Shown: positions 3,314 to 64,000 of the stretch, piece after piece
Layout of the letters: every line of letters begins with the position of its first letter
Numbering within the stretch: position 1 is the stretch's first letter
Source of the DNA: a virus
Taxonomy: Duplodnaviria > Heunggongvirae > Uroviricota > Caudoviricetes
DNA: 64,000 nucleotides
Direction: 5' to 3' (one strand)
Virus record (IMG/VR): IMGVR_UViG_2910903598_000005
Span: 69,058 to 133,057 of that record
The notes under the pieces: model-generated
What the model saw: only the letters and a program-made list of their open reading frames with translations
Told to the model about the DNA's origin: nothing
Databases searched by the model: none
Translations under genes and position numbers: made by a program

Positions 3314-3402
3314 AATAACTGTGATAAGGATATCACATAAATAAATATTGATTATATCTTAACACAAGATATAAAAGGTTTCAAGATAAAACAAAAAAGT
3401 TC

Positions 3403-45332: not shown

Positions 45333-45381
45333 ACCACAATATATAGTATGTCTATAAATATTATATACTATATATTGTGGT
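45333..45381. repeat. perfect 17-bp inverted repeat ACCACAATATATAGTAT / ATACTATATATTGTGGT with a 15-nt loop
   Basis: Read directly. Not followed by a T-run on the + strand. Confidence 0.55.
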
Positions 45382-45509
45382 AGAAAAGGAGTTGAAACAC
45401 TATTACAGCAGAAAAACAAGGCAAGTTTATTATTTTCCATCTGGATGATGATAAAACTTGCAAATATGATTTATCAAATGGTGATTGCTATGGCAAGAGC
45501 GGCAAGAAA

Positions 45510-46544
45510 GTGAAAGCTTTGAACAATATTCTGTCTGGACATTCAGCTGATGAATTGGATAAATTGTTTGTGTCCGATCCACATTATGCAGAGTTTCTAA
45601 AATATGTAAATTGGCGAAGAAATTGTGAAATGGGAAGAACTACATGGGGCTTCATTGATTATAATTTAGGAACTTTGTTTGAATATGCAAGTAAGTATTC
45701 TATGTGCGAGCAGTTCTTTGCTATAGGTTTTACACACAAACAAGTCACAGAAGATTTTAAATATTCAATTAATGAAGTACCAAAATGGTTGAGAAATTAT
45801 TGTCTTGGTGTGAAGAATAGACGATTGTTAAGTAATGATTTTGTTGATTTTTATAAGATGTATCCAGATTATGTACAAACGATTTTACAGACAGAGTATA
45901 TGACATTAACTAAAGAATATTTAATAAATTTCTTTGAGGATAATCATAGATATCGTTTTACGAAAATTTTGGAGGCTTTAAATCAGGATTATGGCTATAA
46001 TCTTGCAGATGTGTTTGTTTATATAGATAGAATAATTACATTTGAAGCTGTTACCAATAGTATAAATTGGTTACTCGGAGAATTGCGTGATTATGCCCGT
46101 ATGATGGACGCAATCAGTCATAAATTTGATAGATATCCAAGACATTTCAAAACAACAATGGATATTGTCACAAGAAATTACAAAAGATTACAAAAAGAAT
46201 TTTCGGAAGAAGTCTTTAAGAGCCGTATTAATAAAGAATACGAATTTACATATAAAGGACTGAGATTCTTTTATCCAGACTCCACTCAAGACATTAAAGA
46301 CGAAGCGGTGCAGCAAAATAATTGTGTGGCAAGTTACATAGATCGAGTCATTGATGGCGAATGCCATATCATGTTTTTGAGAAACGCAAAAGAACCAAAC
46401 AAATCCTTAGTGACGATTGAAATACAAAATGGACGAATCGTACAAGCACTGCAAAGATTCAATGATCCTCTAACTGCCGATCAACAAGAAGCGGTCGATG
46501 CATGGAATGAACATTTTAGTAAGAAAGGTAAGGTGGCAGCATGA
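45510..46544 (+). CDS. hypothetical protein (344 aa or longer). The reading frame is open and protein-like from 45396 with ribosome-binding site AAAAGGAG at 45383-45390 but no ATG, so it may start at ATT 45402.
   Basis: The track start is GTG 45510. Upstream in-frame text ...TITAEKQGKFIIFHLDDDKTCKYDLSNGDCYGKSGKK looks coding. Confidence 0.5.
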   Translation: MKALNNILSGHSADELDKLFVSDPHYAEFLKYVNWRRNCEMGRTTWGFIDYNLGTLFEYASKYSMCEQFFAIGFTHKQVTEDFKYSINEVPKWLRNYCLGVKNRRLLSNDFVDFYKMYPDYVQTILQTEYMTLTKEYLINFFEDNHRYRFTKILEALNQDYGYNLADVFVYIDRIITFEAVTNSINWLLGELRDYARMMDAISHKFDRYPRHFKTTMDIVTRNYKRLQKEFSEEVFKSRINKEYEFTYKGLRFFYPDSTQDIKDEAVQQNNCVASYIDRVIDGECHIMFLRNAKEPNKSLVTIEIQNGRIVQALQRFNDPLTADQQEAVDAWNEHFSKKGKVAA

Positions 46545-52579: not shown

Positions 52580-53116
52580 ATGCTTGTAAAATGTAGAATT
52601 TGCGGCAAAAAAGTAGACAGAAACGAAGCTTTTAAAGTAGCAGTAGAAGGTAAACCAAATGCCTACTACTGCTCAGAAGCTGAGTATAACAAAATGATGG
52701 AAAACCGCAAAAATAGGAATGATACATATTATTGTATTTATGATATTTTCGGATATACGGTGACGAATACTGTATTAAATAAGGAAGTAAATGCCCTCGG
52801 CAAAATCTACGGATTTAAATTGATATTAGAATACTTGCATGACAATCAAGAATATTTAACAAGAATTGTTGGGAGAGAATACAATAGCGAATTTGCTAAG
52901 ATTAAATATTTTTCAGCAATTTTAAAAAATAGTCTGGTTGATTATAGGGACTCAGACGATGGAGTTCCACAGAGACAACAGGCTATTGTTAAACATCATG
53001 TTGTAAGCAAGCAGATCAATGAAAATATCGGAGCTGAAAAAACTAAATACAAGAAGAAAAAGAAATCTCGTAGATGTATTAACGATATTTTGACGGAAGT
53101 TGGTGAGAAAGAATAG
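52580..53116 (+). CDS. hypothetical zinc-finger protein (178 aa)
   Basis: CRICGKK...YYCSE. Ribosome-binding site TAGGAGTCTG. Confidence 0.5.
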   Translation: MLVKCRICGKKVDRNEAFKVAVEGKPNAYYCSEAEYNKMMENRKNRNDTYYCIYDIFGYTVTNTVLNKEVNALGKIYGFKLILEYLHDNQEYLTRIVGREYNSEFAKIKYFSAILKNSLVDYRDSDDGVPQRQQAIVKHHVVSKQINENIGAEKTKYKKKKKSRRCINDILTEVGEKE

Positions 53117-53172
53117 CAGATTTTGTTGCAGGAGTTAAAGACAAATATCCGTCAAAATTATTAAAAGGTCGT

Positions 53173-54663
53173 ATGGAGGCAGAGGGAAATGTAATCAGTT
53201 GTTTCTTTAAAGATATGTTGCTTTTGGATGACACTACATTCGAACAACACGATTTCATTACAAAAGATGGGCTTTTTTACTTTTCTATGCTCAAAAAATT
53301 ACGTGAACAGGGCTTCTATTCTCTGGATGAAATCACGATTTTATCCAACCTGTCTGAGAACGCTATAAAAAGATACACTGACATGGGAGGATGGGATTCT
53401 ATTCAACATCAGATAGATATTATCAACACACAGAATTTTGATGTGTATATCGACATTCTGTATAGAGAAAACACTATGCTGAAGATGTATGATGATGGAT
53501 TTAACCTGTTCAAAGAGATAGACATTGACGGCAAGAAAATCGTACCAGTAACACTTTTCAGAAGAATGACCGCCGAGGAAGTTACGGATTGGTATGATGC
53601 AAGACTAAGTACATATGGTACGGGATATTCCAGTAAGATTCTGGAAGAAGAAGAAATTGATTTTGATGATGATTTTATTGATTCCTGCGTGGAAGGTGAA
53701 GAAAATGGAGTTCCATTTGATGTGGCAGGGATTGATATTAATGGCGAAGAAATGAACTGCTTTCCGTTCTTATCCAGACAGATCATGGGTATTCTTGAGG
53801 GAACACTTACTATGATGGGTGGATTCAGTAGTGCAGGTAAATCAACATGGTTTATCACTTTGCTTATGGCATTGCTGAATTATGATAGGAAAGTATTGAT
53901 CATTTCAAACGAAGAAAAAGTAAAGAAATTTAAAGTCAAGTTTATGATTTGGCTTTTGGCGAAGCATAATCGTTATTTTAAGTTGACAAAAAAGAAAATG
54001 ATGTCTGGACAGATTGATGATGCAAGCCGAAGAGAACTAAAAGACGTGCAACAGTTATGGCGAGAACGGTATAAGGGTAGAGTGAAATTCTTACTTATCA
54101 ACGATGCTGATATGACTGTTGTCAAGAAGAAAATTAGAGAACATGTACTTCGCTACGGATATGACACAGTGTTGTATGACACTTTTAAGATTCAAGAAGG
54201 AGATTTTAAAGGTAATCGTACTGATTTATCTTTGGTTCATGACAGTCGAGAGTTAGATAAACTTGCAAAAAAATACAACATTATCATGCTGGCATCTGTG
54301 CAGTTAGCAGAGTATATGAGAGGAAGGCTATTTCTTGATAGCTCTGTTCTTTCAAACTCTAAACAGATCAAAGAAGTATTAGAGAATCTTTTCTTGATGA
54401 GGACTGTATATGACGAAGAACTTGATGAAAAGAGTAAATTCTATTGTCGTCCATTTAGGCTAAAAAAAGTTAATGATAAATGGATTGAGGAAGAATATCA
54501 TCCTGATCGTACTGCGGTGTGGAGAGCTTTATTTGTTGAGAAATGTCGAAGCGGTTCAAACTCATCAGATACAGGAGTTGGTTATCTACTTAAATTCGAT
54601 GGTGATCATTGTATCTTTAGAGAGGTTGCGCAGGCAAGATTTAAACATGGAGAAATCAAATAA
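53173..54663 (+). CDS. DnaB-like replicative DNA helicase
   Basis: Walker A GGFSSAGKST. LLINDADMTV... and MLASVQLAEYMRGR match the DnaB C-terminal RecA-like domain. Confidence 0.7.
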   Translation: MEAEGNVISCFFKDMLLLDDTTFEQHDFITKDGLFYFSMLKKLREQGFYSLDEITILSNLSENAIKRYTDMGGWDSIQHQIDIINTQNFDVYIDILYRENTMLKMYDDGFNLFKEIDIDGKKIVPVTLFRRMTAEEVTDWYDARLSTYGTGYSSKILEEEEIDFDDDFIDSCVEGEENGVPFDVAGIDINGEEMNCFPFLSRQIMGILEGTLTMMGGFSSAGKSTWFITLLMALLNYDRKVLIISNEEKVKKFKVKFMIWLLAKHNRYFKLTKKKMMSGQIDDASRRELKDVQQLWRERYKGRVKFLLINDADMTVVKKKIREHVLRYGYDTVLYDTFKIQEGDFKGNRTDLSLVHDSRELDKLAKKYNIIMLASVQLAEYMRGRLFLDSSVLSNSKQIKEVLENLFLMRTVYDEELDEKSKFYCRPFRLKKVNDKWIEEEYHPDRTAVWRALFVEKCRSGSNSSDTGVGYLLKFDGDHCIFREVAQARFKHGEIK

Positions 54664-55713: not shown

Positions 55714-57307
55714 CATTTTGAACGATTGCAGAGGACTTTTTGAAGATGAGGTGTTTGAAATTATCATGCAGGAGCGTGGTATTGACGATCCAGAGCATTT
55801 TCTAAATCCTACGGAAGATGATTTACTTTCTCTTGATGACTTAAAAAATATTGATAAAGCATATAAGCTTTTGGTAGATGCAGTATACAAAGATAAACGT
55901 ATTGCAGTACATTTTGACACAGATACTGACGGAGTTGCAGCGGGAACTATTATTACACGACATTTAAAAAACATGACAGAAAATCCAGTAGATGTATACA
56001 TTAACCGAGGCAAACAGCATGGATTAGCAAATCAGGACATTGCTAAGTTTTATGGGTATGATTTACTGATTGTCGTTGATAGTTTGGATAAAGACGAGAC
56101 TCAGTATAAGGATTTAAAAGAAACAGGAGTTGATGTGATTGTGTTAGACCACCATGCCATCGATCCAGATGTTCCTTATGACAACTATTGCACATTAGTT
56201 TCTTCTCAGAGAGAATATGAAAATCCACAGCTATCTGGCGCAGGTGTTGTTTGGAAGTTTTGCAAGTATATTGATGAGCAGAATGGTACAGATTATGCAG
56301 ATGATTTGGTCGATCTAGCAGGTGTTGGGCTGATTGCAGATATGATGGATATGAGAGTAATGGAGAATCGTTACATTGTATCCGAAGCTTTGAAAGAAAT
56401 TAGAAATCCTGCGATTAAGAAGATTATTGGTGGATTTGAATTCAACAGCACAGCAGTTGCTTTTAGTATTGCACCGTTGGTTAATGCTGCAAACAGAATG
56501 GATCAGAATGAAATTGCCCTAAATGCTTTCCTTGAAGACGACAATAAAAAGTTACGAGGATATATTAAACAGTTAAAGCAATGCAAAGAAGACCAAAATG
56601 AAGAGGTCGCACAGCTGATGCCAATGATTGTGGAACAGTGTGAAGCTCAGAGTTATAAAAAGATGATCACAACTTTTATCGACACTGATTATGGTATTTC
56701 TGGGTTAATTGGAAACAAATTGCTTGAAAAATACCAGAAGCCGATTCTTGTGCTAAAGAAAAATGAAGATACATATGCAGGATCTATGCGAGCAGTTGGT
56801 GTAAAAGACTTCCGACAGATGTGTAATAACAGTCAGTTGGCTGAAGCAAATGGACATGAACTTGCCAGTGGTATTGAAATTCCTAGAAAGAACTTCGCTG
56901 AGTTCACCTCTTATATAGAAGAAACTCTTTCAGATAAGCCAGAAGATACAACAGTTGATGTCGATATTATGCTTGATATTTCAGACATCACAAGAAAAAT
57001 GGTTGACATGATTAAGAAAATTGATCGTATTTCTGGACAAGGATTTAAACCTGTAAGAGTTTATATTGAAGAGATTGACGACTATGACATTGGTCAGATG
57101 AGCAATTATAAACATCTTGTCCTGAAACCATGTAACAATGATAAATTGTGGATCATTAAATGGAACTACGATGGATCATTTGAGGATATGGAAGACCACT
57201 CTATGATGAATGATGAATTTTGTGCTGTAACTACTCTTGATTGTGGATTCTTTGGCAGAAAGTTTGTGCTGAAAGCAGTGTGTGATTCACTTGAAGAGGT
57301 GGGATGA
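55688..57307 (+). CDS. RecJ-like single-strand DNA exonuclease (DHH/DHHA1)
   Basis: Motifs IAVHFDTDTDGVAAG, VIVLDHH and distal GSMRAVGV/ANGHELASG. Confidence 0.7.
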   Translation: MKTSKKKYNILNDCRGLFEDEVFEIIMQERGIDDPEHFLNPTEDDLLSLDDLKNIDKAYKLLVDAVYKDKRIAVHFDTDTDGVAAGTIITRHLKNMTENPVDVYINRGKQHGLANQDIAKFYGYDLLIVVDSLDKDETQYKDLKETGVDVIVLDHHAIDPDVPYDNYCTLVSSQREYENPQLSGAGVVWKFCKYIDEQNGTDYADDLVDLAGVGLIADMMDMRVMENRYIVSEALKEIRNPAIKKIIGGFEFNSTAVAFSIAPLVNAANRMDQNEIALNAFLEDDNKKLRGYIKQLKQCKEDQNEEVAQLMPMIVEQCEAQSYKKMITTFIDTDYGISGLIGNKLLEKYQKPILVLKKNEDTYAGSMRAVGVKDFRQMCNNSQLAEANGHELASGIEIPRKNFAEFTSYIEETLSDKPEDTTVDVDIMLDISDITRKMVDMIKKIDRISGQGFKPVRVYIEEIDDYDIGQMSNYKHLVLKPCNNDKLWIIKWNYDGSFEDMEDHSMMNDEFCAVTTLDCGFFGRKFVLKAVCDSLEEVG

Positions 57308-58575
57308 TTATGTATGAAGATTTAATTGCAAAAATTATCCCAACATTAAAATTTAAATTTCCATATTCTGTTGAAGATTATGGAAGAAATCTATATCTTG
57401 AAAACTACCATTGTCATAAAGATTTTAGTAATACATCAACTCCAGATTGTGCAGAATCAATTGAAAATTATGCAAAACGTATTCATGAATTTGGTGCAAA
57501 ATGTCTTTATTCAGGGGAGCATGGGTCACAAGGAAACCAGTTTGAAGTATATAAAGTGGCTGAAAAGGAGCATTTGAAATATATTCATTCTGCTGAAGCC
57601 TACTGGGTGAAAGATAGAAAAGAAAAAGACAAAGCAAACTGTCATATGATGATACTTGCGAAAAATGCTGAAGGGAGAGAAGATATTAACTTCGCCCTTT
57701 CTATGGCAAATATTGATGGATATTATTACAAACCAAGAATTGACTTAGAATTACTTTTTAATATTCCAAAAGAGAATGTAATTGTTACATCAGCTTGCTT
57801 ATCTGGTTGGCATTATAAAGATGCAGAGGACATTTGGTTAAAAATACATGACTATTTTGGCGATAATTTCTTTTTAGAAGTGCAGGCTCATAATACTGAT
57901 CCACAAAAAAGACTTAACAGAAAAATCTTAAAACTTGCAAAAGAACACAATATTCAGATCATTTGTGGGCTTGATAGTCATTACATTGATGATAAGACGG
58001 CAGTAAAAAGGGATCAGATTTTAAAGTACAAGCATATTGAATATCCAGAAGAATTTGGATGGTATATGGATTATCCAGACACAACAACGGTTATAGAGCG
58101 ATTTCAAGAGCAAGGAGTTCTTTCTGATGAAGAAGTCTTAACTGCTATTATGAACACAAACGTGTTCATGTCAGAATGCGAAGAAATTGTTTTTGACAGA
58201 AAATTTAAAATTCCAAGCGTTCATAAAGATAAAACATATGAAGGCAAATGTGCTATTTATAAGAAAATATTAAACAAAGCCTATGCTAAAGAAAAAGAAA
58301 AATCAAAAGAAAAAGCAGATGGAATTAGGTATGAAGCAAAACAAGTCATGGATTCAGGAGTTGTAGATTACTTTTTAACAAGTAAAGCAATTGTAGATGA
58401 TGCAGTAAATTGCGAAGGTGGAATATTAACTACTACGTCAAGAGGTAGCGCTGCATCATTCATTACAAATAAGTTGCTAGGATTAACAACGGTAGATAGA
58501 TTCAATGCAGATATTCCTATTTATCCAGAACGCTTTTTAACAAAAGACCGTGTTTTAGCAGGTCAGATGCCCGAT
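57304..58575 (+). CDS. DNA polymerase III alpha subunit, exon 1 (PHP domain), ending at the conserved MPD of the MPDxDxDF motif
   Basis: ENYHCHKDFSNTSTPDCAESIENYAKRIHEFGAKCLYSGEHGSQGNQFEVYKVAEKEHLKYIHSAEAYW is a PHP domain. The last residues are ...ERFLTKDRVLAGQMPD, then an in-frame stop. Confidence 0.65.
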
Positions 58576-59717
58576 TAAAACAATAGTGCATATAAACCAG
58601 TAAAGGAGGAATTTTTATTACAGGTATTTACTGTATTGAAAATATTGTAAATCATAAAAAATATGTTGGACAAAGTGTAGATATAAATGATCGATGGAAA
58701 CATCATCTAAATAGTTTAAGAAGAAACGATCATGCAAATTGTTATTTGCAACGTAGTTTTAATAAATATGGTGAAGAAAGTTTTAAACATTATATTTTAG
58801 AAGAGTGTAAAAGAGAAGATCTTGATGAGAAAGAGAAGAGTTGGATTAAAAAATTAAACACATATAAAAATGGCTACAATATGAATGGTGGTGGATCTGG
58901 ATGTTATATCCCAAATCCTACAGATGAATATAGAGAAAAAATGCGAAGAATGGTTATGGGGACGAATAACCCAAATTATGGGCATAAATGGACTGAAGAA
59001 ATGAAAAGAAATTTATCTCAAAAAAAGATTGGGAAAAATTTAAATGAAAATAACCCAAATGCCAAGTCTGTAATATGTGTTGAAACTCTAAAAATATATA
59101 AGACACAAAAGGATGCTGCAAAAGAATTACATATTAAAAATACATCATCAATATCAAGGTGCTTATTAAATAAACAAAATTTAGCTTATGGTTATCATTT
59201 TGTTTTATATACAAAAGAAATGTATGAATATTTATTAAACAATCAATTTGAGTATTTGTGCGAATGTAATGTCGGACGAAAAATCTATGCAGATATGACT
59301 AATAAAAGATTTTATTTGTTGAAAGATATGATGAAAAAATTGTATCCACTACTAAATTGCACTCAACGAGAACTAAAACAATTTCTTAAACAAGAAAAGT
59401 TCAATGTAAATAACGTAGAATATGTACTGTTATAATAGTCGCTATATGTAGTGATATATATAGAAAACCCAGAATATCAGGGGAAGTCCTAAAACCTTGT
59501 CCACCAAGCATTAGAGAAATCAAAATGTGGCATTGTTAACTGCAATGATATGGTAACAGCGGCAAGGATTGGATAATCCTGAGAGATAGCCCTAAGTTGT
59601 TTAAATATACAATATGGGAAGCTCGCAACGACTACCAATGGGAATCCGAGATAATATCGACGATTATGGTATAGTCTACTCCCCTATTAAAATATCGGGA
59701 AACCGAGGGTATCAAGG
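58576..59717 (+). mobile_element. Putative group I intron carrying a GIY-YIG homing-endonuclease ORF, inserted in the Pol III alpha gene
   Basis: Lies between conserved polymerase segments. The 3' ~280 nt has group-I-like core elements: R-like GCAACGACTACC (59625-59636) pairing with S-like TATAGTCTAC (59672-59681) through GACTA/TAGTC, and a P4-like AGGATT/AATCCT (59565-59580). Boundaries are approximate, not confirmed. Confidence 0.5.
58617..59435 (+). CDS. GIY-YIG homing endonuclease (I-TevI-like), probable non-AUG (ATT) start
   Basis: GIYCIENIVNHKKYVGQSVDINDRWKHH is a GIY-YIG motif. The frame is open from 58596. Ribosome-binding site AAAGGAGGA at 58602-58610. There is no ATG, GTG or TTG before the GIY motif; ATT at 58617 has 7-nt spacing. 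Confidence 0.55.
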   Translation: MTGIYCIENIVNHKKYVGQSVDINDRWKHHLNSLRRNDHANCYLQRSFNKYGEESFKHYILEECKREDLDEKEKSWIKKLNTYKNGYNMNGGGSGCYIPNPTDEYREKMRRMVMGTNNPNYGHKWTEEMKRNLSQKKIGKNLNENNPNAKSVICVETLKIYKTQKDAAKELHIKNTSSISRCLLNKQNLAYGYHFVLYTKEMYEYLLNNQFEYLCECNVGRKIYADMTNKRFYLLKDMMKKLYPLLNCTQRELKQFLKQEKFNVNNVEYVLL

Positions 59718-61745
59718 ATTGACCTAAATGTAGCTACTCAGGAGCCATTTGTGAAAGCTGCAAAAAAACTTCTTGGAGAGCATGGATGTTATCCGTTAAT
59801 GGCTATAGAAAAGTTAAAAGAGAAAGCAGCATGGCAATTATATGCTGGAGCTAATGATGTTAGTTCAGAAGATGCAAATAGAATTTCAAAATATCTTGAT
59901 GATTATAATAAAGCATTGAAATATGCTGATGAAGAAGATAAAGATTTTATTCATGTTGAAGACTACATTCCAGAAGAATATGTTGATTTATTTAAACAAA
60001 GCAATGAGTACCAAGGAATCACTATCAATCTAAAAGTACATGCTTGTGGACATTTTATATTCGACGGAGATATTCGTAGAGAAGTAGGATTAATTAGTGC
60101 TGTTTCAGAAACGACTGGGAAAAGAACAATTTGTGCCGCCATTGAAGGTGGCTATCTTGATGAATTTGGATATGTAAAAGAAGATTTTCTTATTGTAGAT
60201 AGTGTTTATCTTACATATAAATTTTTTCACAGTATAGGAATGGAGGTTCCTACATCTGAAGAACTGAGAGAGATGATAGAAGGAGATCATAAAACATGGG
60301 ATATTTATGCAAAAGGAATTACTTGTTGTGTTAACCAATGTGAAAAAGAAGCGACAACAAATAGAGCAAAGAAATATAAGCCACAAAATTTAGCAGAATT
60401 AAGTAGTTTCATTGCTGCAATTAGACCAGGATTTGCATCTTTATTAAATACTTTTTTAAATCGTGAACCATATTCAACAGGCGAAAAGAAAATTGATGAG
60501 TTGTTACAAGATACAGCACATTTTATGATTTATCAAGAGTCAATTATGAAGGTATTATCTTTCCTGCAATTGAAGATGGGCGAAACGTATGGAGTTATTA
60601 AAAATATCTCGAAAAAAAAATATAAAGCTCATCCTGAAAAGTTAAAAGAACTGAAAGAAAGATTAAAAGATGGTTGGCAAATTGAAATTGGAGAACTTAA
60701 TAATTTCAATAATATATGGGAAGTTATAGACTCATCAGCTTCGTACGCCTTCAACTCTCCGCATGCTTGGTCGATGGCTGAGGATTCTGCCTATCAGGCA
60801 TGGTTTAAAGCTCATTATACGAAAATGTTCTATGAAGTAGCAATTAATCATTACCAAGAAAAAAATAAGAAAGATAAAATTGATGCTCTAGTAAAAGAAG
60901 CCATTAAATTTTGGGGATATAAATTGGGAGATTATCGGTTTGGAGCAGACAATAGAAAAGTCACGATTGATGAAGAACATAAAATTATATATCCCAATTT
61001 ATCAAGCATTAAAGGATTTGGAGAAGGTGTCGCCAATTCACTATATGATTTAGGACAGGCTAAATACAGCTCATTCATAGAAGTAATCAATGTATTAAAG
61101 CAGAATCATCTCAATAAAACAGTGATAGACAAATTAATTAAAATTAATTATTTTGTAGAGTTCGGAGATGCGAATACCTTATTAGAAACAGTTAAATATT
61201 ATGAATTATTAAATGGGAAAAAGCAATTGTCCAAAGAAAAGGCGATAGAATATCACATTTCTTCTGATTTACTTTTGAAGTATGGTCATGAGACAAAAAC
61301 ACTTTATAATCAATTAGATTCAGAACAATTACTTATTGAATCTATAAAAAATATTCCATACAGAGAATTGTCTTTGAAAGAAAAATTAGACAATCAGAGA
61401 AATGTTCTCGGAATTGTAAGCTATGCTAACGTAAAAGTTAATAAACGATTATATTATGTTTCAGATCTTGATGTTAAAAAATCCATCGTTAACATTCAGT
61501 TATATGAAATTTACTCTGGAAAAACACAGAAAGTAAAAATGTGGACAAACCAATATAAGAAGAACCCATTCGATGAAGGAGATATTCTATATCTGAAATC
61601 AGTTGAGAAGAAACATAAAAAAGAACCAACTGGGGAGATCAATACAAAAACAGGAAAGAAAATCTACAAAGATGTGCCAGATAAATTTGAGTTTTGGCTT
61701 AAGAATTTCACTATTAAAAATGACGTAGAGGAGGAATTAGTATAA
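59718..61745 (+). CDS. DNA polymerase III alpha subunit, exon 2 (palm/fingers core); the 5' boundary is a hypothesis
   Basis: ASYAFNSPHAWSMAEDSAYQAWFKAHYTKMF matches the Pol III alpha FNKSHAAAY...LKAHYP motif. The frame is open from 59691 (IDLNVATQ... could continue MPD-IDL). The track start is GTG 59751. Confidence 0.6.
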   Translation: MDLNVATQEPFVKAAKKLLGEHGCYPLMAIEKLKEKAAWQLYAGANDVSSEDANRISKYLDDYNKALKYADEEDKDFIHVEDYIPEEYVDLFKQSNEYQGITINLKVHACGHFIFDGDIRREVGLISAVSETTGKRTICAAIEGGYLDEFGYVKEDFLIVDSVYLTYKFFHSIGMEVPTSEELREMIEGDHKTWDIYAKGITCCVNQCEKEATTNRAKKYKPQNLAELSSFIAAIRPGFASLLNTFLNREPYSTGEKKIDELLQDTAHFMIYQESIMKVLSFLQLKMGETYGVIKNISKKKYKAHPEKLKELKERLKDGWQIEIGELNNFNNIWEVIDSSASYAFNSPHAWSMAEDSAYQAWFKAHYTKMFYEVAINHYQEKNKKDKIDALVKEAIKFWGYKLGDYRFGADNRKVTIDEEHKIIYPNLSSIKGFGEGVANSLYDLGQAKYSSFIEVINVLKQNHLNKTVIDKLIKINYFVEFGDANTLLETVKYYELLNGKKQLSKEKAIEYHISSDLLLKYGHETKTLYNQLDSEQLLIESIKNIPYRELSLKEKLDNQRNVLGIVSYANVKVNKRLYYVSDLDVKKSIVNIQLYEIYSGKTQKVKMWTNQYKKNPFDEGDILYLKSVEKKHKKEPTGEINTKTGKKIYKDVPDKFEFWLKNFTIKNDVEEELV

Positions 61746-61795
61746 TTCAATTTTACAAATATACCGACAAGGAAATCAAAGAACTCATCAGCTCG

Positions 61796-62278
61796 ATGAC
61801 AATCCTGGTCGACACAAGGGAGCAAAAGGCTGATCATATCATAGGTTACTTCGATAGAAAAAGCGTAAATCATAAAAAGAAAGCATTGAATTATGGAGAC
61901 TACAGTTTCATGATTCCTGCAAATGAGAAGCTTGGTATTCAGAGAGATATTTATTTTGACAGCAAAGTATGTATTGAACGCAAAGGAAGTCTTGAAGAAA
62001 TCAGTGGCAATTTATCAAAAGATCGTGCCAGATTCGAAAAAGAGCTAAGTCTTGCACCAGAGACAAAAGTTATTCTGCTTGAAAACGCCAATTACTCAGA
62101 TATTGCAGATGGCAATTATAACACGCAGTATAACAAGAAATCATTCATTGGATCATTGCACAGCTTTTGGTTTAAATACAATGTGCCGATATTCTTCATG
62201 CCAGATAATAAATATTCTGGGCTGTTTATTCGATTGTATTTTGAATATTACTTTAAAAATTATTTAAAAGGGAAATGA
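61796..62278 (+). CDS. ERCC4-type (XPF/Mus81/Hef-like) nuclease-domain protein
   Basis: ILVDTREQK ... NYGDYSF ... IERKGSLEE match the ERCC4 motifs (VDxRE, GDY, ERKx3E). The upstream frame is open from 61724 with GAGGAGGA at 61727-61734, so the start may lie earlier. Confidence 0.5.
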   Translation: MTILVDTREQKADHIIGYFDRKSVNHKKKALNYGDYSFMIPANEKLGIQRDIYFDSKVCIERKGSLEEISGNLSKDRARFEKELSLAPETKVILLENANYSDIADGNYNTQYNKKSFIGSLHSFWFKYNVPIFFMPDNKYSGLFIRLYFEYYFKNYLKGK

Positions 62279-62294
62279 GGTGCTGCCTAAATAA

Positions 62295-64000
62295 TGGAGA
62301 GTCAGACATGCGGAAAGGTATGCGAGTTTGAAATGATTCCTACATATCAGATATTTTATAATGAAGAATCAATGTTTGGTATCTATGCGTTTTGTACAAA
62401 AGACCAGATACCACAATTCAGTCCATACAATGATAATAAATTTGATGACTCAGGAGATAAAGAATATGTTGCAAGTAAACTTGTTGGAGAAGTTCAACAG
62501 TTATATATTGGGACAAAGTATAATGTAAAAGCGACATGTATTTATTCTCAAAAATATCACGAATATCAATATAAGCCGATTTCGGTTGTTGCAGATGTTC
62601 CAAAAACACAGACCGATCAGCTAATGTTTTTAAAAACACAAGCGAAAGAATCAATTGCTGAAAGCTTGCTTGCTGAATATCCAAATATCATTGAGGATGT
62701 TATGGCAGGAAAATGCAAGACTATCGATACATCTATGATTAAAGGACTTGGCAACAAGACATGGGCGAAGCTCAGAGAGAAGATCATTAATAATTATGTG
62801 ATTTCCGAGGTTGTAATTATGCTACAGCCTCATGGGATTACTTTTAATATGATTAAGAAATTGGTAGAAGCTGAGCCAGATTCAGAAAAGTTAAAGTATA
62901 AAATCAACACAAATCCTTACATTTTAACTAAGATCAGAGGTCTTGGATTTAAGAAAGTTGATGATATTGCTTTAAAGATCCGTCCAGAATTGAGAGATTC
63001 CAAGTATCGACTTGATTATTTTATGACGTATTATTTAACGAATCTTGGCGAAAGTGACGGACATACATATATGGCGATTGCCACATTGCGATCAGAAGTT
63101 AGTACAACAGTTGGAGAGTGTCTGCATATATTTGACGATTATGTTGAAAATGATTTTCCTCCAGACATCTATGTTAGTGGCGAACTAATTGGTTTGAAAA
63201 AGTACCATGACACAGAAATGAATATACTGGCATTGTTGCAAGAACGCAGAGATACTAATTCTACCAAGAAGAAAGAGATAATCACTGTAAACGAAATTGG
63301 ACAAGTTATTGCCGAAGTTGAAAAAGAAGAAGGATTTACTTTTAGTGAAGAACAAAACAAAGGTATTTATACTGCATTACAAACAAATGTCGTCTTGATT
63401 AGTGGTGAAGCTGGAACTGGTAAAACTACCTTATTAAAGCCGATCATCAGATGTTATAAGAAAAGAAATTACAGCATTGCTGCATGTGCATTATCTGCGA
63501 AAGCAGCACAGAGAATCCAAGAAGCAACAGGATTAGAAGCAAAAACTATTCATAGATTGCTTGAGGCACAAGGCGTAGATTCATTTATGCACGATGCCAA
63601 CAATCCGTTGCCAATAGATGTAGTTCTTTTAGATGAGGCAAGTATGGTTAATGCAGGGTTGTTCTATCAATTACTTTTGGCAATTCGTCCAGGTACAAAG
63701 ATTATTATTAGCGGAGATCATATGCAGTTACCACCAATTGGCTATGGCAATATTTTTTCTGATCTGCTCAAAATGGATGAGTTGGCTTCTGTGAAATTAA
63801 CGAAGCCAATGAGACAAGCAGAAAAGTCTGGTATTCTTAGTGATGCTAGAAAAGTGCGTAGAGCGATTTCACCAATTGAGGATTTTAGTGCTAAACAAGT
63901 TCATGGAGAACTGCATGATATGTTTTACATCTTCAGAAATAATCGTGAGAATATTTTTAATTTGGTTGTAAAGCAGTTCATGACGTGTGTTAAACAAGAC
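62295..64000 (+). CDS. RecD2/Dda-like SF1 DNA helicase (partial, runs off the window end)
   Basis: Open frame to 64000. HhH-like LTKIRGLGFKKVDDIALKI, Walker A GEAGTGKTT, Walker B VVLLDEASMV, motif III ISGDHMQLPPIG. Not in the ORF track because it has no stop. Confidence 0.7.

What the first reader, a model, noticed from the sequence alone, without database searches (positions are those of the whole stretch)
58596..58625. Homing-endonuclease ORF appears to initiate at a non-AUG codon (ATT) after a strong Shine-Dalgarno
What the sequence shows: the GIY-YIG frame opens at 58596 (after TAA at 58593-58595). A perfect ribosome-binding site AAAGGAGGA lies at 58602-58610. The first conserved residues (GIYCIEN) begin at 58623. 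No ATG, GTG or TTG exists in between. ATT at 58617, 7 nt after GGAGGA, would give M-T-G-I-Y..., matching the usual 2-4 residues that precede GIY in I-TevI-like enzymes.

Two other ORFs in this window show the same signature of a good ribosome-binding site, an open protein-like frame and no canonical start near it: the gene at 45396-45510 and the ERCC4 gene at 61724-61796.

Inference: this is attenuated, possibly regulated, translation initiation at AUU, as known for infC. It may keep endonuclease levels low.
Basis: partly seen in the sequence, partly recalled or inferred. Interest (0 to 1): 0.5.

Follow-up and report, generated by a model that had tools for sequence, protein, structure and literature searches.

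The report
Phage genes that start at AUU/AUA
The intron-encoded homing endonuclease in this gut phage almost certainly starts at an AUU codon behind a strong ribosome-binding site, and three other genes of the replication region also start at AUU or AUA, so standard gene finders truncate all four.

Summary
TAA lies at 58593-95, AAAGGAGGA at 58602-10 and an in-frame ATT at 58617. No in-frame ATG, GTG or TTG occurs before codon 50.

Comparative data show that ATT is the start codon. In homologous introns at the same site of the phage DnaE-type polymerase, the codon two places before G-I-Y is ATT, ATA, ATC or ATG, always after a Shine-Dalgarno (SD) motif. In one intact 272-codon relative (L302) a TAA stop sits directly before the ATT.

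The PcfJ-like gene starts at ATT 45402 and the ERCC4 nuclease at ATA 61742. I found a fourth case, the DnaB-like helicase at ATA 53113. Across dozens of related phage contigs these aligned positions hold only ATA, ATT, ATC, ATG, GTG or TTG.

The endonuclease ORF lies in the P1 loop of a 1142-nt group I intron (58576-59717), and its stop codon abuts the internal guide sequence.

Attenuation by a weak start codon is inferred from published work on Firmicutes, where AUU or AUA gives about 10-30% of AUG. I did not test it here. This is a new member of a known mechanism. The clustering in a phage replication region is unusual, and it has practical consequences for annotation.

The parts
58602..58610 (+). 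Shine-Dalgarno sequence AAAGGAGGA of the homing endonuclease gene
   Evidence: Read directly. Duplex energy with the anti-SD is -12.5 kcal/mol. An SD is present at the same relative place in all same-site relatives.
58617..58619 (+). ATT, proposed initiation codon of the homing endonuclease
   Evidence: It lies 6 nt after GGAGGA. It aligns with ATG of L296, L298 and L300, with ATT of L003, L012 and L302, and with ATA/ATC of L004 and L008. In L302 a TAA directly precedes it.
58617..59435 (+). GIY-YIG + NUMOD3 homing endonuclease CDS (272 codons plus TAA)
   Evidence: Pfam GIY-YIG 2e-11 and NUMOD3 1.3e-6. I-TevI catalytic domain 1MK0 at E 1.9e-17. Intact 272-codon orthologues at 51-64% identity.
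58576..59717 (+). Group I intron (1142 nt) in the DnaE-type polymerase gene
   Evidence: The junction QMPD|IDLNV restores one 1097-aa ORF and is contiguous in intronless phage DnaE genes. The 3' part is 76% identical to the intron annotated in phiCD211. The consensus fold has 75 pairs, 21 with compensatory changes.
58572..58577 (+). P1 5' strand (CGAU|UA) with the 5' splice site after U58575
   Evidence: It pairs with UAGUCG 59436-59441, including a U-G wobble at the splice site. The phiCD211 intron has GGU|UA / UAGCC at the homologous place. AGUCG is kept in all relatives.
59436..59441 (+). Internal guide sequence UAGUCG (P1 3' strand), directly after the HEG stop codon
57304..58575 (+). Polymerase exon 1 (PHP and N-terminal DnaE domains; start ATG 57304 or 57310)
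   Evidence: Pfam PHP and DNA_pol3_alpha. SD spacing favours 57310.
59718..61745 (+). Polymerase exon 2
   Evidence: Pfam DNA_pol3_alpha C-terminal part, finger and HHH_6 domains. Junction confirmed.
45402..46544 (+). PcfJ-like gene starting at ATT 45402 (SD AAAAGGAG 45384-45391; in-frame TGA 45393-95)
   Evidence: Relatives carry ATT or ATC (88-99% identity) or ATA (45% identity), always with a stop 1-3 codons upstream. The N-terminus is conserved and changes after the start are synonymous.
53113..54663 (+). DnaB-like helicase gene starting at ATA 53113 (SD GGTGA 53102-53106)
   Evidence: The aligned codon is ATA in most relatives, ATC in two, ATG in eight contexts and TTG in one. ATG 53173 of the window is Ile in most relatives.
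61742..62278 (+). ERCC4-type nuclease gene starting at ATA 61742 (SD GGAGGA 61730-61735), overlapping the polymerase stop TAA 61743-45
   Evidence: The aligned codon is ATA, ATT, ATG, GTG or TTG in relatives. The N-terminal segment xxxFKYTDKExxELISS is conserved upstream of the non-conserved ATG 61796.

Best explanation
The homing endonuclease is translated from AUU 58617. The strong SD AAAGGAGGA places the 30S subunit so that initiator tRNA reads the near-cognate AUU, giving (f)Met-Thr-Gly-Ile-Tyr....

This is a conserved property of a phage lineage, not a lesion. Same-site introns in related phages use AUU, AUA, AUC or AUG at this codon. Three other genes of the same replication region start at AUU or AUA: the PcfJ-like gene (AUU 45402), the DnaB-like helicase (AUA 53113) and the ERCC4 nuclease (AUA 61742).

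The inferred consequence is lower translation than from AUG. For the endonuclease this limits a DNA-cutting enzyme. The ORF also fills the P1 loop and ends at the internal guide sequence, so a weak start limits ribosome traffic that would disrupt P1 and splicing of the essential polymerase mRNA.

Shown here: the position and conservation of the start codons, the intron boundaries and the P1 pairing. Inferred: the reduced efficiency and the benefit for splicing.
For: 1. Only AUU 58617 is usable. The open frame upstream of GIY has nine codons with no ATG, GTG or TTG, and the other ATT (58611) abuts the SD.

2. Homologues begin M-x-G-I-Y exactly where the window has I-T-G-I-Y. At DNA level the same-site introns show ATG (L296, L298, L300), ATT (window, L003, L012/L302), ATT/ATA (L004) and ATC/ATA (L008), each after an SD.

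3. L302 is an intact 272-codon ORF with TAA directly before ATT.

4. The I-TevI structure sequence aligns from residue 2.

5. Three other genes show the same signature, with large comparative sets. The aligned codons are restricted to initiation-competent triplets. Where Val or Leu codons occur they are only GTG and TTG, despite an AT-rich genome. Neither the window's ATG 61796 nor L003's upstream ATG is conserved in the other.

6. About 90 other + strand genes in the window have ATG, GTG or TTG with an SD. The four cases are therefore exceptions, not a failure of the SD model.

7. Published reporter data exist for Firmicutes. S. aureus AUU and AUA starts with extended SDs give about 10-30% of AUG (PMC13009471). 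In Listeria the order is ATG > ATA > ATT (PMC13068326).

8. Phage homing endonucleases are known to be translationally restrained. [quoted passage not shown]

9. The ORF lies in the P1 loop with its stop next to the internal guide sequence.
Against: - There is no protein or ribosome-profiling evidence. Everything is comparative.
- ATT, ATA and ATC are also the synonymous Ile codons, so their interchange alone would fit an internal Ile. This is countered by upstream stops and by ATG, GTG and TTG at the same positions.
- In L003 and L008 an in-frame GTG lies inside the SD. It has no SD of its own but cannot be formally excluded as the start in those two lineages.
- AUC, seen in some relatives, is a very poor initiator in E. 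coli (my own recollection of the literature, not checked here).
- The SDs of the four genes are strong (-9.8 to -12.5 kcal/mol) but not stronger than those of many ATG genes.
- The host is unknown, so its initiation stringency is unknown.
Confidence: 0.8

Rival explanations
1. AUU 58617 is used mainly by re-initiation. Ribosomes translating polymerase exon 1 on unspliced RNA stop at the intron's in-frame TAA (58576-78), 38 nt upstream, then restart at the SD-AUU. Endonuclease synthesis would then be coupled to translation of unspliced pre-mRNA. By analogy, the ERCC4 and helicase AUA starts overlap the upstream stops (ATAA, ATAG) and would be coupled starts.
For: TAA 58576-78 lies in the exon frame at the first intron codon in the window and in most relatives; two lineages have TAG there. 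ATA 61742 overlaps the polymerase stop TAA 61743-45, and ATA 53113 overlaps the upstream TAG 53114-16. These genes are tightly packed.
Against: The PcfJ-like gene follows a roughly 100-nt intergenic gap, so it has no upstream ORF to couple to. Many relatives with ATA starts do not overlap the upstream stop. All four sites have a full SD at the right spacing, which is enough for de novo initiation. The two mechanisms are not exclusive.
Confidence: 0.12
2. The endonuclease gene is a decaying pseudogene that lost its ATG and is no longer translated.
For: Homing endonuclease genes do cycle through decay. L012 carries TGG-to-TGA at the invariant Trp. Gene callers report only truncated products (P0001 229 aa; P0004 and P0007 263 aa).
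Against: Intact 272-codon ORFs persist in at least five non-ATG lineages at 51-64% protein identity, with 38 invariant alignment columns and the GIY and YVG motifs kept. The SD is kept at the right spacing in all of them. The same start-codon pattern occurs in a replicative helicase that is unlikely to be dispensable.
Confidence: 0.05
3. Translation starts at the first canonical codon, TTG 58746, as automatic annotation assumes, giving a 229-aa protein without the N-terminal GIY segment.
For: This is the ORF that the ORF listing and the public gene call P0001 report.
Against: There is no SD before 58746 (0.0 kcal/mol). The product would lack the first 43 residues of the catalytic domain that align to I-TevI. 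Those residues are conserved at protein level in all relatives.
Confidence: 0.02
4. The endonuclease is made as a fusion with, or by readthrough or frameshift from, polymerase exon 1.
For: The ORF starts only 41 nt into the intron.
Against: The exon frame ends at TAA 58576-78. The endonuclease frame is a different frame and is itself closed by TAA 58593-95, so both a readthrough and a frameshift would be needed within 20 nt. L302 has a stop directly before the ATT.
Confidence: 0.01

Closest known systems
Translation attenuation by AUU/AUA start codons in bacteria (E. coli infC and pcnB; S. aureus infC, cvfC1, ccpN, citZ; Listeria rsbW variants)
   Same: A near-cognate AUH start sits behind a strong or extended SD at optimal spacing. 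The start codon is conserved across relatives and interchanges with ATG. Expression is expected to be lower than from AUG (PMC13009471, PMC13068326).
   Different: Here the genes are phage genes, four of them within 17 kb of one replication region. In S. aureus four such starts were found in the whole genome. One of the four is an intron-encoded homing endonuclease. No autoregulatory logic like that of infC and IF3 is evident.
[quoted passage not shown]
   Same: A GIY-YIG (I-TevI-like) endonuclease is encoded inside a self-splicing group I intron of a phage replication or nucleotide-metabolism gene, with an in-frame stop at the start of the intron. Endonuclease translation needs restraint so that the intron can fold (PMC2988022; Gibb & Edgell 2010, as cited there).
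   Different: The T4 enzymes use AUG, and the ribosome-binding site is hidden in a stable hairpin with a late promoter to release it. Here I found no conserved hairpin over the SD; the weak element is the start codon. The ORF lies in the P1 loop rather than in P6 or P9 loops.
Group I intron of Clostridioides phage phiCD211 (annotated Intron_gpI)
   Same: The ribozyme core is 76% identical, and P1 and P2 have the same layout, with covariation in P1.
   Different: The phiCD211 intron is ORF-less, about 275 nt long, and sits in a tail-gene region rather than in the polymerase. The window intron carries an 860-nt insertion (leader plus endonuclease ORF) in the P1 loop.

Membership tests
GIY-YIG homing endonuclease (I-TevI-like) | N-terminal GIY-YIG catalytic domain with the GIY and YxG motifs and conserved Arg, Glu and Asn | tested here: met
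   Pfam PF01541 at 2e-11, covering profile positions 3-78 of 78. I-TevI 1MK0 at E 1.9e-17, aligned over residues 2-90. GIY and YVG are present. I did not map the Arg, Glu and Asn catalytic residues individually.
GIY-YIG homing endonuclease (I-TevI-like) | C-terminal DNA-binding modules (NUMOD-type) joined by a linker | tested here: met
   NUMOD3 PF07460 at 1.3e-6, residues 109-141. The conserved C-terminal region is shared with orthologues.
GIY-YIG homing endonuclease (I-TevI-like) | Site-specific cleavage of the intronless allele and intron homing | not testable with these tools
   This needs a biochemical or genetic assay. Indirect support: intronless and intron-containing alleles of the same polymerase site both exist.
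Group I self-splicing intron | 5' splice site after a U paired to G in P1; intron ends in G; removal restores the host ORF | tested here: met
   U58575-G59438 wobble in P1. The terminal G is 59717. The spliced ORF is 1097 aa and the junction is contiguous in intronless homologues.
Group I self-splicing intron | Conserved core helices supported by covariation | tested here: inconclusive
   RNAalifold gives 75 pairs, 21 with compensatory changes, over 7 sequences, and the core is 76% identical to an intron annotated in phiCD211. However, Rfam 15 gives no match for the window or for phiCD211, and I did not assign P3-P9 or the G-binding site individually.
Non-AUG (AUU/AUA) initiated bacterial-type genes | No canonical start is available in the conserved N-terminal coding region, and a stop closes the frame upstream | tested here: met
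   Shown for all four genes. L302 has a stop directly before the ATT.
Non-AUG (AUU/AUA) initiated bacterial-type genes | SD at functional spacing, and the aligned codon is restricted to initiation-competent triplets among homologues | tested here: met
   Spacers are 6 nt after GGAGGA or GGTGA in three genes and 10 nt after GGAG in the PcfJ-like gene. Only ATA, ATT, ATC, ATG, GTG and TTG occur at the aligned positions.
Non-AUG (AUU/AUA) initiated bacterial-type genes | Experimental mapping of the initiation site and reduced efficiency relative to AUG | not testable with these tools
   Only literature precedent is available (PMC13009471, PMC13068326).

The most novel reading that the evidence does not exclude
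The AUH starts form a deliberate 'weak-start' set in the replication region of a widespread family of large gut Firmicutes phages related to SPbeta and phiCD211. The set comprises the helicase, the PcfJ-like protein, the ERCC4 nuclease and the intron endonuclease. Their output would depend on initiation fidelity, that is on IF3 activity relative to ribosome and mRNA load. Their translation would then rise or fall with host physiological state or with the progress of infection, giving a translational timing or dosage programme that needs no dedicated regulator.
Probability: 0.15. Interest if true: 0.7.

Novelty: new member of a known kind. Interest (0 to 1): 0.5.

Why it matters
1. Annotation. 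Standard gene callers do not use ATT, ATA or ATC as starts, so they truncate these proteins.
- The endonuclease loses its GIY motif in P0001, P0004 and P0007.
- The helicase, the PcfJ-like protein and the ERCC4 nuclease lose about 18-38 N-terminal residues.
- The deposited phiCD211 helicase appears to be cut by about 55 codons.
The error is systematic across hundreds of public gut-phage contigs.

2. Biology. This shows a second way for a mobile intron to restrain its endonuclease. The T4 introns use a hairpin over the ribosome-binding site; here a weak start codon does the job, in an unusual layout with the ORF in the P1 loop and its stop at the guide sequence.

3. Frequency. Four AUH starts within 17 kb is far denser than the handful known per bacterial genome. 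That makes this phage family a convenient natural system to study near-cognate initiation in Firmicutes.

Tried and rejected
- Rfam scans of the window (permissive E-value threshold, 57000-64000) and of the phiCD211 intron locus found no family. Intron identity therefore rests on splice-junction logic, homology and covariation.
- A hairpin sequestering the SD, as in I-TevI, was tested by folding the leader in five lineages. The folds differ and z-scores run from -0.1 to -2.5, so nothing conserved was found. I rejected this idea.
- A phage-encoded special initiator tRNA was considered. ARAGORN finds no tRNA in the window. The rest of the phage genome was not available.
- Alternative genetic code (TGA as Trp) was considered because L012 has TGA at an invariant Trp. 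Its near-identical relative L302 has TGG, so this is a nonsense mutation.
- I looked for a lineage-level link between start types of the ERCC4 and helicase genes on the same contigs. My automatic SD-based start picker mis-assigned some obvious ATG starts, so I draw no conclusion from that table and rely on the aligned-position listings.
- No close cultured relative exists in the phage collection; the helicase is at most 29% identical. The host remains unknown.
- Literature searches found no report of an AUU- or AUA-initiated homing endonuclease or of clustered AUH starts in a phage. The library is limited to open-access papers, so this is not proof of absence.

Full report
**Context**

The window is AT-rich (33% G+C) and almost all genes lie on the + strand. 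Positions 45-64 kb form a replication region laid out like that of SPbeta/phiCD211-type phages (the layout comparison is from my own recollection, not a test here). Its genes are:
- a PcfJ-like protein;
- a DnaB-like helicase;
- a DHH/RecJ-like exonuclease;
- a DnaE-type polymerase;
- an ERCC4 nuclease;
- a RecD/PIF1-type helicase.

No cultured phage is close. The helicase is at most 29% identical to those of C. difficile, Bacillus and Lactococcus phages. Many IMG/VR and metagenome contigs of 80-280 kb are near-identical or 45-80% identical.

**The observation**

- TAA at 58593-95.
- The frame opens at 58596.
- AAAGGAGGA at 58602-10.
- In-frame ATT at 58617, after a 6-nt spacer.
- GIYCIEN from 58623.
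- No in-frame ATG, GTG or TTG until TTG 58746 at codon 50.

That TTG has no SD (0.0 against -12.5 kcal/mol). Starting there would delete the first 43 residues of the catalytic domain, which align to I-TevI (1MK0; query residue 2 aligns to I-TevI residue 3). The second in-frame ATT (58611) abuts the SD and is unusable.

**The gene's setting**

The polymerase is split by an intron.
- Exon 1 ends ...CAG ATG CCC GAT (58575) and exon 2 begins ATT GAC CTA (59718).
- Joining them gives QMPD|IDLNV and one 1097-aa ORF.
- The junction peptide is contiguous in intronless DnaE genes of phiCD211, phage c-st, Lactococcus phages and a 77%-identical faecal phage contig.

The intron is therefore 58576-59717 (1142 nt). 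It starts after a U and ends in G.

Its last 280 nt are 76% identical to the intron annotated in phiCD211. With five same-site relatives they fold into a consensus of 75 pairs, 21 of which have compensatory changes. Rfam 15 recognises neither this intron nor the phiCD211 one.

P1 is CGAU|UA (58572-77) paired with UAGUCG (59436-41). phiCD211 has GGU|UA paired with UAGCC at the homologous place. AGUCG follows the endonuclease stop codon within 0-3 nt in every relative.

So the endonuclease leader and ORF (58578-59435) form a giant P1 loop, and a terminating ribosome would sit on the internal guide sequence.

**Is ATT the start?**

Ten homologues at 45-99% identity were aligned.
- Four begin M-x-G-I-Y-C-I-E-N exactly where the window reads I-T-G-I-Y-C-I-E-N.
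- Three are visibly mis-called: P0001 starts at the internal TTG, and P0004 and P0007 start at an internal Met after GIYCIEN.

At DNA level, introns at the identical polymerase site show the following:

| Lineage | SD, spacer and first codons |
|---|---|
| window, L002, L011, L301 | AAAGGAGGA-N6-ATT ACA GGT |
| L003 | AAAGGTGG-N8-ATT ACT GGA |
| L012, L302 | AAAGGAG-attg-TAA-ATT ACA GGA |
| L004-7, L303 | AAAGGAG-N6-ATT ATA GTA GGG |
| L008-10, L013 | TAAGGAGTGAT-atat-ATC ATA GGA |
| L296, L298, L300 | SD then ATG (ATA/GTT) GG(A/T) |

L302 is decisive. It is an intact 272-codon ORF whose frame opens exactly at ATT, because TAA is the preceding codon. Its near-twin L012 has TGG-to-TGA at the invariant Trp, an example of ordinary endonuclease decay.

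Among more distant GIY-YIG genes, most have a canonical start within a few codons of GIY.

An SD-energy scan of all long + strand frames shows ATG, GTG or TTG with a good SD for about 90 genes. There are four clear exceptions: 45402 ATT, 53113 ATA, 58617 ATT and 61742 ATA.

- **PcfJ-like gene.** The frame opens after TGA 45393-95. Relatives at 88-99% identity have ATT or ATC. Relatives at 45% identity have ATA directly after a TAG. The following residues are conserved, and changes begin as synonymous third-position differences right after the start.
- **ERCC4 nuclease.** The aligned codon is ATA in many lineages. It is ATT in L202/L204; ATG in L171-175, L177, L211 and L214; GTG in L167/168, L188 and L210; and TTG in L181 and L212. 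It is followed by a conserved xxxFKYTDKExxELISS segment. The window's ATG 61796 is Ile in many relatives. L003's own upstream ATG is ATC in the window.
- **DnaB-like helicase.** The aligned codon is ATA in most relatives, ATC in L252/253, ATG in eight contexts and TTG in L290. The window's ATG 53173 is Ile in most.

Only initiation-competent triplets occur at these positions. Where a Val or Leu codon appears it is always GTG or TTG, although the genome is AT-rich. That is the signature of a start codon, not of an internal Ile.

The deposited phiCD211 helicase shows the same anomaly. The homology begins 55 codons upstream of the annotated ATG, in a frame that opens after TGA with ATC.

**Mechanism**

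What is shown: the position and conservation of the AUH starts, the SDs at functional spacing, the intron boundaries and the P1 geometry.

What is inferred:
- AUH starts lower output relative to AUG. In S. aureus, AUU and AUA starts with extended SDs were mapped by Ribo-Ret and gave about 10-30% of AUG in reporters. Only four such starts were found genome-wide (PMC13009471).
- In Listeria the efficiency order is ATG > ATA > ATT (PMC13068326).
- T4 intron endonucleases are restrained differently, by hairpins over the ribosome-binding site. Premature I-TevI translation impairs splicing (PMC2988022 and the Gibb & Edgell 2010 paper cited there).

I found no conserved hairpin here. The weak codon appears to play that role, which fits an ORF whose end overlaps the guide sequence.

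A contribution from re-initiation is possible but cannot explain the PcfJ-like gene. The candidates are restart after the exon-frame TAA 38 nt upstream, and the ATAA and ATAG start/stop overlaps at the ERCC4 and helicase genes.

**Rivals**

- Pseudogene: rejected because of intact ORFs in five or more non-ATG lineages and conserved SDs.
- Start at TTG 58746: rejected because there is no SD and the catalytic N-terminus would be lost.
- Fusion with or readthrough from exon 1: excluded by two stops in two frames.

**Verdict**

The mechanism class is known, so this is a new member of it. Three points go beyond the known cases:
- this is the first case I could find of an AUU-initiated intron endonuclease;
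- four conserved AUH starts cluster in one phage replication region;
- public annotations of this phage family are systematically truncated as a result.

Noticed in passing
window 58576-59717 (P1: 58572-58577 with 59436-59441): The endonuclease ORF with its leader (about 860 nt) lies in the P1 loop of the group I intron. Its stop codon TAA 59433-35 directly abuts the internal guide sequence UAGUCG. Rfam 15 detects neither this intron nor the homologous intron annotated in phiCD211.
   Followed up: partly
L003 3841-6828 (metagenome contig ERZ27237438 k141_481316): A relative with the same polymerase intron also carries an intein in polymerase exon 2, according to the precomputed Pfam hits (Intein_splicing unmarked, Hint_2 weak, LAGLIDADG_3 faint). 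The product is 995 aa against 664 aa in the window, so one gene would host two kinds of mobile element.
   Followed up: no
L012 about 3373-3375 (IMGVR_UViG_2920951204_000001): The endonuclease has TGA in place of the invariant Trp codon (YGHR*TNEMK). The near-identical L302 has TGG, so this is a recent nonsense mutation, a snapshot of endonuclease decay rather than stop-codon recoding.
   Followed up: yes
window 45334-45349 and 45365-45380: A perfect 16-bp inverted repeat (CCACAATATATAGTAT ... ATACTATATATTGTGG, 15-nt loop) ends 4 nt before the SD of the ATT-started PcfJ-like gene. Relatives carry either this element or an unrelated upstream sequence. It could be an operator or an RNA hairpin near the ribosome-binding site.
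   Followed up: no
L295 391-570 (Clostridium phage phiCD211, LN681537.2, helicase PHICD211_20069): Homology to the window's helicase begins about 55 codons upstream of the annotated ATG. The frame opens after TGA and has no canonical start near the AAAGGAG motif; an ATC lies 3 nt after it. The deposited annotation is probably N-terminally truncated, and this cultured phage may share the non-AUG start habit.
   Followed up: partly
L044 3001-3030 (IMGVR_UViG_3300045988_135736): A more distant GIY-YIG endonuclease (41% identical) from the same metagenome also lacks a canonical start before G-V-Y. It has ATT ATT ATA ATC after GAAGGA, so AUH starts may occur in other endonuclease genes of these phages.
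   Followed up: no
window 61742-61745 and 53113-53116: The AUA starts of the ERCC4 and helicase genes overlap the stop codons of the upstream genes as ATAA and ATAG. These are the AUA counterparts of the classic ATGA start/stop overlap, and a single G-to-A change would convert ATGA to ATAA.
   Followed up: partly
window 53104-53106, 45393-45395, 61721-61723: In all three non-endonuclease AUH genes the in-frame stop that closes the frame upstream is a TGA within or just beside the SD region.
   Followed up: no
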